A stretch of 59,157 nt of DNA from Candidatus Woesearchaeota archaeon (GTDB lineage Archaea; Nanobdellota; Nanobdellia; Woesearchaeales; UBA10216), in assembly GCA_016935265.1 (NCBI GenBank), contig JAFGRH010000043.1:1-59157 (forward strand). The letters are read 5' to 3'. The notes under the pieces were generated by a model that saw only the letters and a program-made list of their open reading frames with translations, did not search any database and had not been told where the DNA came from. The position numbers and the translations under genes were made by a program. Below are positions 45,761 through 45,969 of this stretch, piece after piece (position 1 is the stretch's first letter; each line of letters opens with the position of its first letter).

Positions 45761-45969
45761 TAGCGGGGGGAAGACTTCCTCTCGGATACAAAGCTTGTAT
45801 TCCGGCTTTGAACTTCCGACCTCCACGAGTGGAAGCAATTGCTTACCGCTGTCTGTGGGTTCCTCAACCAAGAGTTGGTTATGAGCCTTCCGAAGCAGCA
45901 GGTCACTGCTACACCGGGCACTCCTAGTTGGGCGGGACAGACTTCCTGTCACCTCTGCCCTACCCCGCT
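45761..45969 (-). tRNA. Initiator tRNA-Met (CAU) gene containing five introns.
   Basis: Introns on the minus strand, in window coordinates:
- 45928-45954: 27 nt, position 15/16
- 45888-45911: 24 nt, position 29/30
- 45861-45879: 19 nt, position 37/38
- 45821-45852: 32 nt, position 45/46
- 45775-45806: 32 nt, position 59/60

The joined exons give a 75-nt product: AGCGGGGUAGGGCAGCUAGGAGUGCCCGGUGGGCUCAUAACCCACAGGUCGGAAGUUCAAAUCUUCCCCCCGCUA.

Its cloverleaf is complete:
- Perfect 7-bp acceptor stem with A1:U72.
- D arm GGGC/GCCC with loop AGCUAGGAGU.
- Anticodon stem GUGGG/CCCAC with three G:C pairs next to loop CUCAUAA.
- T arm GGAAG-UUCAAAU-CUUCC.
- Discriminator A.

A TATA box lies at -25..-32. 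Confidence 0.85.

What the first reader, a model, noticed from the sequence alone, without database searches (positions are those of the whole stretch)
45761..45969. Initiator tRNA-Met gene broken by five BHB introns
The 209-nt minus-strand segment is not recognisable as a tRNA as written. Excising five segments (27, 24, 19, 32 and 32 nt at positions 15/16, 29/30, 37/38, 45/46 and 59/60) leaves a textbook 75-nt archaeal initiator tRNA.

The product has these hallmarks:
- A1:U72.
- Three consecutive G:C pairs closing the CUCAUAA anticodon loop.
- T loop UUCAAAU.
- Perfect acceptor, D and T stems.

Each junction sits in a bulge-helix-bulge context:
- Intron 1: central helix GGGC/GCCC with bulges AGA and AAC.
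- Intron 2: central helix CCGG/UCGG (one G.U pair).
- Intron 3: central helix CUCA/UGAG with bulges UAA and GAA.
- Intron 4: central helix CCAC/GUGG with bulges AGA and AGG.
- Intron 5: central helix UUCA/AGGA (3 of 4 pairs).

In all five, cutting after the second bulge nucleotide on both strands reproduces the exon junction exactly.

To my knowledge the published maximum is three introns per archaeal tRNA gene. Five introns, in the essential initiator, would therefore be unusual. It implies a splicing endonuclease that tolerates relaxed BHB motifs at many positions.
Basis: partly seen in the sequence, partly recalled or inferred. Interest (0 to 1): 0.92.

Follow-up and report, generated by a model that had tools for sequence, protein, structure and literature searches.

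The report
Initiator tRNA gene with five introns
A tiny archaeon (Woesearchaeota) encodes its start-codon tRNA in six pieces separated by five short protein-spliced introns, two more than the published maximum of three. The same broken gene is conserved in distant relatives, so it is very likely functional.

Summary
Removing five segments (27, 24, 19, 32 and 32 nt) from minus-strand 45969..45761 leaves a 75-nt tRNA. ARAGORN calls it tRNA-Met(CAT). It has all 21 stem pairs and the initiator hallmarks.

- **Junctions.** The cut sites fix where each 4-bp central helix must lie, and 19 of 20 of those pairs form. I estimate the chance of this at about 7e-7.
- **Host.** The contig is from a DPANN Woesearchaeota archaeon.
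- **Intronless orthologues.** Two relatives carry an intronless gene next to RNase HII. It scores 63-64 bits on Rfam tRNA and differs from the spliced 75-mer only by compensatory pair changes.
- **Conserved five-intron genes.** Three other contigs carry the same five introns at the same five sites. Exons are 96-100% identical, introns 69-88% and flanks about 50%.
- **Wider family.** In 72 distinct relatives' genes the junction helices show strong compensatory changes.
- **Literature.** The papers I could search give three introns as the archaeal maximum.
- **Not testable here.** Expression, the splicing enzyme type and a possible second intact copy elsewhere in the genome.
- **Side finding.** The neighbouring RNase HII gene carries a conserved intron of the same type in its coding sequence.

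Verdict: a real feature and a new variant of a known kind.

The parts
45994..46001 (-). TATA-like promoter box TTTATAAA, starting 32 nt upstream of tRNA position 1
   Evidence: Read directly from the sequence. It is conserved at the same distance in L083. A TTTAWA box starts at -36 to -29 in 46 of 71 distinct upstream regions of relatives, with the mode at -32. Function is inferred.
45955..45969 (-). Exon 1 (tRNA 1-15): acceptor 5' strand, positions 8-9, D-stem 5' strand, A14 G15
45928..45954 (-). Intron 1 (27 nt) at 15/16. Central helix GGGC/GCCC, bulges AGA and AAC.
   Evidence: Compensatory changes at this site in 14 relatives.
45912..45927 (-). Exon 2 (tRNA 16-29): rest of the D loop, D-stem 3' strand, G26, positions 27-29
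45888..45911 (-). Intron 2 (24 nt) at 29/30. Central helix CCGG/TCGG, bulges TGT and AAG, inner helix of 7 bp.
   Evidence: Compensatory changes in 49 distinct sequences.
45880..45887 (-). Exon 3, an 8-nt micro-exon (tRNA 30-37) that contains the CAU anticodon
45861..45879 (-). Intron 3 (19 nt) at the canonical 37/38 site. Central helix CTCA/TGAG, bulges TAA and GAA.
45853..45860 (-). Exon 4, an 8-nt micro-exon (tRNA 38-45): anticodon-stem 3' strand plus A44 G45
45821..45852 (-). Intron 4 (32 nt) at 45/46. Central helix CCAC/GTGG, bulges AGA and AGG. There is no outer helix (relaxed motif).
   Evidence: CCTC/GAGG in L086 is a compensatory variant.
45807..45820 (-). Exon 5 (tRNA 46-59): variable region, T-stem 5' strand, T loop up to position 59
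45775..45806 (-). Intron 5 (32 nt) at 59/60. Central helix TTCA/AGGA (3 of 4 pairs). The outer helix is the 5-bp T stem.
   Evidence: Compensatory changes in 19 relatives.
45761..45774 (-). Exon 6 (tRNA 60-73): T60, T-stem 3' strand, acceptor 3' strand, discriminator A73. No CCA is encoded.
45721..45760 (-). 3' trailer with a G+C-rich hairpin (GGCCACGG...CTGTGGCC) followed by a T run. A termination or processing role is probable but inferred.
   Evidence: The hairpin stem is kept in L083 with a different loop. Other loci carry other hairpins followed by T runs.

Best explanation
This is the functional initiator tRNA-Met gene of a Woesearchaeota (DPANN) archaeon, interrupted by five bulge-helix-bulge (BHB) introns at 15/16, 29/30, 37/38, 45/46 and 59/60.

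Proposed mechanism (inferred from how BHB introns are known to be processed, not shown here):
1. Transcription starts about 25 nt downstream of a TATA box and yields a precursor of at least 209 nt.
2. The acceptor and T stems close a multi-branched structure in which each intron forms its own hairpin. Each hairpin has a 4-bp central helix flanked by two 3-nt bulges.
3. The archaeal splicing endonuclease (EndA) cuts in both bulges of each motif.
4. An RtcB-type ligase joins the six exons, two of which are only 8 nt long. The introns are released, probably as circles.
5. RNase P, 3' trimming and CCA addition finish the 75-nt tRNA.

The 8-nt exons would be held by only 2-5 base pairs if all ten cuts were made at once. 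I therefore infer stepwise cut-and-ligate cycles, with the canonical 37/38 intron gaining its full outer helix only after introns 2 and 4 are removed.
For: **The spliced product is an initiator tRNA.**
- ARAGORN calls it tRNA-Met(CAT), and it folds as a perfect cloverleaf with A1:U72 and G29-31:C39-41.

**The junctions fit the motif.**
- 19 of 20 central-helix pairs form at positions that the junctions alone dictate. In random controls only 2.9% of pseudo-introns reach 4/4.

**Orthology.**
- L081 and L082 carry an intronless tRNA-Met next to RNase HII. It scores 64 and 63.4 bits on Rfam RF00005.
- All 8 differences between L082 and the window's spliced product fall in 4 base pairs, and each pair stays Watson-Crick.
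- The tRNA sits beside RNase HII in about 24 loci.

**The architecture is conserved.**
- L083 (an NCBI genome assembled from a metagenome), L102 and L121 have five introns at the same five sites.
- Among the five-intron genes, exon identity is 96-100%, intron identity 69-88% and flank identity about 50%.
- RNase HII in these loci is only 53-65% identical to the window's protein, so they are different species.

**Compensatory change in the junction helices across relatives.**

| Site | Sequences | Cells paired, observed vs shuffled | Covariation score, observed vs shuffled | Shuffles reaching observed |
|---|---|---|---|---|
| 29/30 | 49 | 89.6% vs 68.2% | 0.561 vs 0.125 | 0/500 |
| 15/16 | 14 | 72.6% vs 59.2% | 0.434 vs 0.165 | 0/500 |
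| 59/60 | 19 | 82.9% vs 63.7% | 0.495 vs 0.157 | 0/500 |

- Controls with the 3' partner slid by 1-3 columns give much lower pairing at every site.
- Over 185 introns in 72 distinct genes, the central helix has 4/4 pairs in 138, 3/4 in 44 and 2/4 in 3.

**Promoter.**
- The TATA box is conserved at -32.

**Structural compatibility.**
- All five central helices fit in one nested structure at -71.7 kcal/mol, against a minimum free energy of -82.7.
- The unconstrained centroid fold already shows the helices of introns 1, 2 and 4 plus the acceptor and T stems. The z-score is -3.24.

**The host splices this kind of intron elsewhere.**
- The adjacent RNase HII mRNA carries a conserved BHB intron whose central helix also shows compensatory changes.
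Against: - There is no RNA evidence of transcription or of the five junctions.
- No endA or rtcB gene lies in the window or in the fetched loci.
- Only 59 kb of the genome can be inspected, so a second, intact initiator gene cannot be excluded.
- Several motifs are relaxed. Intron 4 has no outer helix. Intron 5 has a mismatch in its central helix. The inner helix of intron 3 is offset by one nucleotide. In L102 and L121 the intron 4 central helix has only 2 of 4 pairs.
- A nearest-neighbour energy model gives low equilibrium probabilities for most of the strict motifs. This is expected for 3-nt bulges without the protein bound, and it neither supports nor refutes the model.
Confidence: 0.88

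Rival explanations
1. The gene has only four introns. Introns 3 and 4 and the 8-nt exon 4 would together form one 51-nt intervening sequence, with the genomic run GGCTCATAACCAAC read straight through.
For: A spliced aligner that charges a cost per intron prefers this solution.
Against: - It gives CCAAC as the 3' strand of the anticodon stem. That creates a G29.A41 mismatch in one of the three G:C pairs that define initiators, and leaves 20/21 stem pairs instead of 21/21.
- No bulge-helix-bulge motif fits the 51-nt segment, whereas introns 3 and 4 each have a perfect 4-bp central helix.
- In L083, L102 and L121 the sequence after GGCTCATA is ACCACTT, so the read-through cannot work there.
Confidence: 0.03
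2. It is a decaying pseudogene of the initiator tRNA that has accumulated insertions. A second, intact copy elsewhere in the genome does the work.
For: - Only 59 kb of the genome is visible.
- Standard tools find no tRNA here.
- No expression data are available.
Against: - The exons are 96-100% identical among four divergent genomes, while the flanks are about 50% identical.
- Every exon difference in a stem is compensated.
- All insertions sit in bulge-helix-bulge contexts that are maintained by compensatory changes.
- The promoter box is conserved.
- The gene occupies the ancestral locus beside RNase HII, where relatives have their intronless copy.
Confidence: 0.05
3. It is an assembly or chimera artefact, or a chance resemblance produced by freely choosing ten boundaries.
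For: Choosing five introns within 209 nt gives many degrees of freedom.
Against: - Four independent assemblies from different projects share the architecture.
- A separate Logan assembly reproduces the adjacent 1.86 kb exactly.
- Decoy spliced alignments in the window reach only 59.5, against 123.4 at the locus.
- The junction helices are an independent test and give a chance of about 7e-7.
Confidence: 0.01
4. The segments are removed by something other than the protein endonuclease, for example self-splicing group I or II introns, or they are not removed at all.
For: None found.
Against: - The segments are 19-32 nt long, far too short for ribozyme introns.
- Rfam finds no intron family here.
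- The structure that is conserved and shows compensatory changes is exactly the bulge-helix-bulge motif.
Confidence: 0.01

Closest known systems
Multi-intron tRNA genes of Thermoproteales (for example Pyrobaculum calidifontis and Thermofilum pendens). The species examples are from my own knowledge.
   Same: - Short bulge-helix-bulge introns at canonical and non-canonical positions.
- Relaxed motifs.
- Some motifs are complete only after a neighbouring intron has been removed.
- The product is an ordinary cloverleaf (PMC8450103).
   Different: - The published maximum is three introns per gene; this gene has five.
- The host is a DPANN Woesearchaeota archaeon, not a crenarchaeon.
- The enzyme type is unknown here.
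- Two exons are only 8 nt long.
Disrupted tRNA genes of DPANN archaea (ARMAN epsilon2 EndA; alpha4 EndA with the L3 loop)
   Same: - The same superphylum.
- Kaneta et al. 2018 link DPANN EndA variants to increased tRNA gene disruption. They explicitly expect 'unidentified disrupted tRNA genes' in DPANN genomes whose tRNA sets are incomplete; a Woesearchaeota genome was among the DPANN genomes they analysed (PMC5829648).
   Different: - That work did not report genes with more than three introns.
- The present gene is an example of what standard predictors miss.
Nuclear tRNA genes of the red alga Cyanidioschyzon merolae
   Same: - Ectopic and multiple bulge-helix-bulge introns in the D arm, at 37/38 and in the T loop.
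- Removal is ordered, and the 37/38 intron goes last (PMC3728597).
   Different: - It is a eukaryote.
- The maximum there is three introns.
- Some of those genes are also permuted, and this one is collinear.
Split and permuted tRNA genes (Nanoarchaeum equitans, Caldivirga maquilingensis). The species examples are from my own knowledge.
   Same: The pieces are joined through bulge-helix-bulge motifs by the same enzyme.
   Different: All six exons here lie in order on one strand within 209 nt, under one promoter. No trans-splicing is needed.
Endonuclease-spliced archaeal mRNAs (cbf5; HVO_1309). This comparison is for the side finding in RNase HII.
   Same: A short bulge-helix-bulge intron interrupts a coding sequence and shifts the reading frame (PMC10485636).
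   Different: - The gene (rnhB) and the lineage (Woesearchaeota) are different.
- The 2023 review lists only those two genes as known cases.

Membership tests
Archaeal bulge-helix-bulge (EndA-dependent) tRNA introns | A 4-bp central helix flanked by two 3-nt bulges on opposite strands, with both cuts after the second bulge nucleotide | tested here: met
   Four introns have 4/4 pairs and one has 3/4, all in the register that the exon junctions fix. Random controls reach 4/4 in 2.9% of cases.
Archaeal bulge-helix-bulge (EndA-dependent) tRNA introns | Flanking helices: the strict form has an outer and an inner helix (hBHBh'), and the accepted relaxed forms have only one of them (HBh' or hBH) | tested here: met
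   - Introns 1 and 2 have both helices (outer 2 bp; inner 2 bp, or 7 bp with one bulged nucleotide, and 7 bp).
- Intron 5 has a 5-bp outer helix, which is the T stem.
- Intron 3 has a 5-bp inner helix offset by one nucleotide.
- Intron 4 has no outer helix, so it is a relaxed form.
Archaeal bulge-helix-bulge (EndA-dependent) tRNA introns | Removing the introns restores a canonical cloverleaf | tested here: met
   - ARAGORN calls tRNA-Met(CAT), with 21/21 stem pairs.
- The intronless orthologues score 64 and 63.4 bits on RF00005.
Archaeal bulge-helix-bulge (EndA-dependent) tRNA introns | The motif is maintained in evolution through compensatory changes | tested here: met
   Covariation scores are 0.43-0.56 against 0.13-0.17 in shuffles, and 0 of 500 shuffles reach the observed value.
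Archaeal bulge-helix-bulge (EndA-dependent) tRNA introns | The genome encodes a splicing endonuclease with broad specificity and an RtcB ligase | not testable with these tools
   - Neither gene was found in the window ORFs that I scanned.
Archaeal bulge-helix-bulge (EndA-dependent) tRNA introns | Cleavage and ligation demonstrated at the predicted sites | not testable with these tools
   This needs RNA-seq, RT-PCR or an in-vitro assay.
Archaeal initiator tRNA-Met | CAU anticodon, A1:U72, three G:C pairs at 29-31:39-41, and purine 11:pyrimidine 24 (features as I know them for archaeal initiators) | tested here: met
   - All four features are present in the spliced 75-mer.
- They are also present in all 56 distinct spliced products of relatives. 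My search pattern demanded part of these features, so that second count is not independent.
Multi-intron tRNA genes as described so far (Thermoproteales type) | At most three introns per gene | tested here: not met
   There are five introns here and in L083, L102 and L121, and four introns in eight further genes. The published limit is from PMC8450103.
Split or permuted tRNA genes | Exons on separate transcripts or in permuted order | tested here: not met
   The six exons are collinear on one strand within 209 nt.
Self-splicing group I or group II introns | A ribozyme core hundreds of nucleotides long | tested here: not met
   The segments are 19-32 nt long, and Rfam finds no match even at E<=1.
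tRNA pseudogene | Degenerate stems and no selective constraint | tested here: not met
   The stems are 21/21. Exons are 96-100% conserved against about 50% for the flanks, and the stem differences are compensated.

The most novel reading that the evidence does not exclude
This Woesearchaeota lineage carries an expanding and rapidly turning-over population of bulge-helix-bulge introns. These introns invade both tRNA genes and protein-coding genes, so the tRNA splicing endonuclease and ligase act as a general, essential splicing system.

Observations that fit this reading:
- The essential initiator tRNA needs five splicing events and the ligation of 8-nt (elsewhere 6-nt) micro-exons.
- Orthologous initiator genes carry 0 to 5 introns at about 12 different sites, including the acceptor stem region.
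- Lineages with an identical mature tRNA differ in which introns they have. L140 has three introns, one of them at 7/8; L102 has five.
- The RNase HII mRNA has its own intron that is present in some relatives and absent in others.
Probability: 0.5. Interest if true: 0.88.

Novelty: new variant of a known kind. Interest (0 to 1): 0.78.

Why it matters
- **A new record.** Five introns in one 75-nt tRNA exceeds the accepted limit of three. It occurs in the one tRNA that every protein synthesis event needs.
- **Annotation gap.** Standard tRNA finders and Rfam miss the gene completely. DPANN genomes that appear to lack an initiator tRNA, or other tRNAs, may simply hide them. This affects completeness estimates and claims of host dependence.
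- **A test case for the enzymes.** Two 8-nt exons and relaxed motifs test how the endonuclease and the RtcB ligase recognise their substrates and hold fragments together.
- **Intron evolution.** Orthologues with 0 to 5 introns at one conserved locus form a natural series for studying intron gain and loss.
- **mRNA splicing.** With the conserved RNase HII intron, the data suggest that splicing of protein-coding transcripts by the tRNA machinery is more widespread in archaea than the two known cases.

Tried and rejected
1. **Sequential numbering.** Standard tRNA numbering was needed.
2. **Genome-collection scan.** I spent the single scan on the inositol-1-phosphate synthase gene. It returned only bacterial, mostly Chloroflexota, loci at 70-79% identity, which was no use for taxonomy or synteny. 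RNase HII homologues gave the answer instead.
3. **Exact-protein look-ups.** Three window proteins were not on record.
4. **Generic motif scan of the window.** A bulge-helix-bulge scan found 1421 hits, against about 1110 in shuffled sequence, so it was too noisy to use.
5. **Scan for further mRNA introns.** Combining the motif with reading-frame repair gave 789 candidates, and I abandoned it.
6. **First junction-scoring script.** It had an index error and was corrected.
7. **Splicing order from thermodynamics.** Equilibrium probabilities of each strict motif were mostly low and gave no clear order. Only mutual compatibility could be shown.
8. **Intron transposition between sites.** Cross-site intron similarity is only marginally above shuffled (8 vs 0 pairs at score >= 12, partly low-complexity), so this is inconclusive.
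9. **Viral contig scan.** No hits.
11. **Four-intron alternative.** Rejected; see the rival explanations.

Full report
**1. The observation**

It lies in a gap between ORFs 44883..45728 and 46024..46875. ARAGORN finds no tRNA in the whole 59-kb window. Rfam finds none at gathering thresholds or at E<=1.

Taken as standard tRNA numbers, with a 10-nt D loop holding 17a and 20a, and using the stated bulges, they define six exons of 15, 16, 8, 8, 14 and 14 nt and five introns of 27, 24, 19, 32 and 32 nt. ARAGORN calls the 75-nt product tRNA-Met(CAT). RNAfold returns the cloverleaf at -35.2 kcal/mol. The product has A1:U72, G29-31:C39-41, anticodon loop CUCAUAA and T loop UUCAAAU.

**2. More than chance?**

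[quoted passage not shown] This test therefore has no free parameter.
- The five helices are GGGC/GCCC, CCGG/TCGG, CTCA/TGAG, CCAC/GTGG and TTCA/AGGA, which is 19 of 20 pairs.
- Random pseudo-introns of the same lengths in the same loci give 4/4 pairs in 2.9% and 3/4 in 18.8%. My arithmetic from those frequencies puts the observed set at about 7e-7.
- A splice-aware aligner scores 123.4 at the locus and at most 59.5 anywhere else in the window.

**3. The organism**

RNase HII, about 1 kb away, has its best named homologues in Candidatus Woesearchaeota, at up to 69% identity. The genes downstream of RNase HII (BatA-like, VWA, MoxR, DUF58, AdoHcyase) are in the same order in two NCBI Woesearchaeota-like assemblies, L081 and L082. 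An archaellum-type FlaI ATPase is consistent with an archaeon.

**4. Orthologues**

L081 and L082 carry an intronless tRNA-Met(CAT) 80 nt from RNase HII. It scores 64 and 63.4 bits on Rfam tRNA. All 8 differences between L082 and the window's spliced 75-mer fall in 4 base pairs, and each pair stays Watson-Crick.

L083 (GCA_016192915.1) has the arrangement EamA, tRNA, RNase HII, as the window does. ARAGORN and Rfam detect no tRNA in it. It nevertheless holds the same gene with five introns (32, 24, 18, 31 and 32 nt) at the same five sites.

One metagenome scan required an intron at 29/30. I wrote a pair-aware spliced aligner for them.
- 76 of the 80 loci give a 75-nt product with 21/21 stem pairs after removing 1-5 introns of at least 11 nt.
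- ARAGORN calls all 56 distinct products tRNA-Met.
- L102 and L121 again have the same five introns.
- Eight genes have four introns.
- The 72 distinct precursors, which include the window, L081, L082 and L083, carry 0 (2 genes), 1 (6), 2 (29), 3 (23), 4 (8) or 5 (4) introns at about twelve sites. This distribution is biased by the search pattern.
- The tRNA lies beside RNase HII in about 24 loci, so these genes are orthologues.

**5. Selection**

Among the four five-intron genes, exons are 96-100% identical, introns 69-88% and 60-nt flanks about 50%. Their RNase HII proteins are only 53-65% identical to the window's. A TATA-like box starts at -32 in the window and L083, and at -36 to -29 in 46 of 71 distinct upstream regions.

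**6. Compensatory change in the motif**

I built fixed-register junction alignments and counted pairs.

| Site | Sequences | Cells paired, observed vs shuffled | Covariation score, observed vs shuffled |
|---|---|---|---|
| 29/30 | 49 | 89.6% vs 68.2% | 0.561 vs 0.125 |
| 15/16 | 14 | 72.6% vs 59.2% | 0.434 vs 0.165 |
| 59/60 | 19 | 82.9% vs 63.7% | 0.495 vs 0.157 |
| 53/54 (no intron at this site in the window's gene) | 11 | 72.0% vs 53.1% | 0.562 vs 0.148 |

- In all four, 0 of 500 shuffles reach the observed percentage paired or covariation score.
- At 29/30, all five inner-helix pairs change on both sides, and sliding the partner by 1-3 columns gives 26-43% pairing.
- At 45/46, CCAC/GTGG in the window and CCTC/GAGG in L086 are compensatory.
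- Over 185 introns, the central helix has 4/4 pairs in 138, 3/4 in 44 and 2/4 in 3.

**7. How it probably works**

The 209-nt precursor folds more stably than shuffled versions: -82.7 kcal/mol, z = -3.24. The centroid fold already contains the acceptor stem, the T stem and the central helices of introns 1, 2 and 4. Enforcing all five motifs at once gives a nested structure at -71.7 kcal/mol, so the motifs are compatible with one another.

The outer helix of intron 3 is only 2 bp long until intron 2 is removed, and it shares C40 with the central helix of intron 4. The two 8-nt exons pair with only 2-5 nucleotides. From this I infer stepwise cutting and ligation, with the canonical intron removed late, as was seen experimentally in C. 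merolae (PMC3728597). A purely thermodynamic estimate of the order was inconclusive. The enzyme steps (EndA cleavage, RtcB ligation, RNase P, CCA addition) rest on established knowledge of BHB splicing and are not shown here. No CCA is encoded.

**8. Comparison with what is known**

- The tRNAscan-SE 2.0 paper states that archaeal tRNA genes contain up to three introns (PMC8450103).
- C. merolae also has at most three.
- Full-text searches for four or five introns found nothing relevant.
- Kaneta et al. 2018 noted more tRNA disruption in DPANN lineages whose alpha4 enzymes carry the L3 loop. They predicted undetected disrupted tRNA genes there.

The gene is therefore a member of the BHB-intron class. 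It exceeds the class's known intron number, and it sits in a lineage where such genes were suspected but not described. The library I searched lacks most subscription journals, so an earlier report cannot be fully excluded.

**9. Limits**

- There are no RNA data.
- endA and rtcB are not in the window.
- The rest of the genome is unavailable, so a second initiator gene cannot be ruled out.
- The five-intron gene does occupy the ancestral locus.

**10. Side finding**

The RNase HII ORF lacks its GIDEAGRGP motif in frame. Removing 38 nt (44847..44810) restores MLVCGIDEAGRGPVIGP. The junction has the central helix AGGA/TCCT and the bulges AGT and AAA.

The same site carries introns of 22-35 nt in L083, L086, L093, L115, L121 and L154. 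L081, L082, L103 and L137 have none. The central helix shows compensatory changes: CGGA/TCCG, AGGT/GCCT, AGGC/GCCT, CGGC/GCCG and CGGT/ACCG. An independent Logan assembly reproduces the window's sequence exactly. A 2023 review lists only cbf5 and HVO_1309 as archaeal mRNAs spliced this way.

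Noticed in passing
window 44879..44176, minus strand (exon 1 44879-44848, intron 44847-44810, exon 2 44809-44176): The RNase HII (rnhB) coding sequence is interrupted by a 38-nt bulge-helix-bulge intron between GIDEAG and RGP, with central helix AGGA/TCCT. The same site carries introns of 22-35 nt in six relatives, with compensatory changes in the helix, and is intron-free in four others. A 2023 review lists only cbf5 and HVO_1309 as archaeal mRNAs spliced this way.
   Followed up: yes
L084-L163, for example L115:4587-4760, L140:12054-12194, L142, L092, L112, L158: Orthologous initiator tRNA genes carry introns at about 12 sites: 4/5, 7/8, 13/14, 14/15, 15/16, 29/30, 37/38, 43/44, 45/46, 53/54, 59/60 and 64/65. 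This includes sites in and right after the acceptor stem, a region that a 2023 review says is intron-free. L115 has a 6-nt exon (TTCAAA). L140 has the same mature sequence as L102 but a different intron set, which implies recent gain or loss.
   Followed up: partly
window 44883..45728, plus strand (probable start near 45159): An ORF lies between the tRNA and RNase HII. It is absent from L081 and L082, where the two genes are 80 nt apart. It has LAGLIDADG-like motifs (LCGDGCL, SHDEGYL) and a weak match to the endonuclease domain of the PI-PfuI intein (1dq3, E = 0.084). Pfam finds nothing, and it is not similar to the ORF at the same place in L083.
   Followed up: partly
window 48364..49440, plus strand: The myo-inositol-1-phosphate synthase gene is 70-79% identical at protein level to homologues in bacterial genomes, mostly Chloroflexota (Dehalococcoidia, Anaerolineae). 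No archaeal genome is among the best 80 hits. This suggests gene transfer between the domains.
   Followed up: no
window 45721..45760, minus strand: The 3' trailer of the tRNA forms a G+C-rich hairpin followed by a T run. The stem is kept in L083 with a different loop. Other loci have unrelated hairpins plus T runs at the same place.
   Followed up: partly
window 3289..3786, plus strand: A 165-aa ORF matches only the C-terminal 54 positions of the RNase P p30 profile, below the Pfam cut-off (29.7 vs 35 bits). The N-terminal part may be divergent or interrupted.
   Followed up: no
window 20121..21296, minus strand: The argininosuccinate lyase ORF (391 aa) covers only positions 21-386 of a 455-position profile. 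It ends 22 nt before the next gene, so the C-terminal ~70 residues appear to be missing.
   Followed up: no
L082:17513-20008: The MoxR-type AAA ATPase of this relative is 831 aa long and has an intein-splicing domain hit. The window's orthologue (37429..38364) is 311 aa with no such hit.
   Followed up: no
window 1..59157: Neither ARAGORN nor Rfam detects a single tRNA or other RNA family in 59 kb of this archaeal contig. Given the hidden initiator gene, other heavily interrupted RNA genes might be present. I did not search for them.
   Followed up: no
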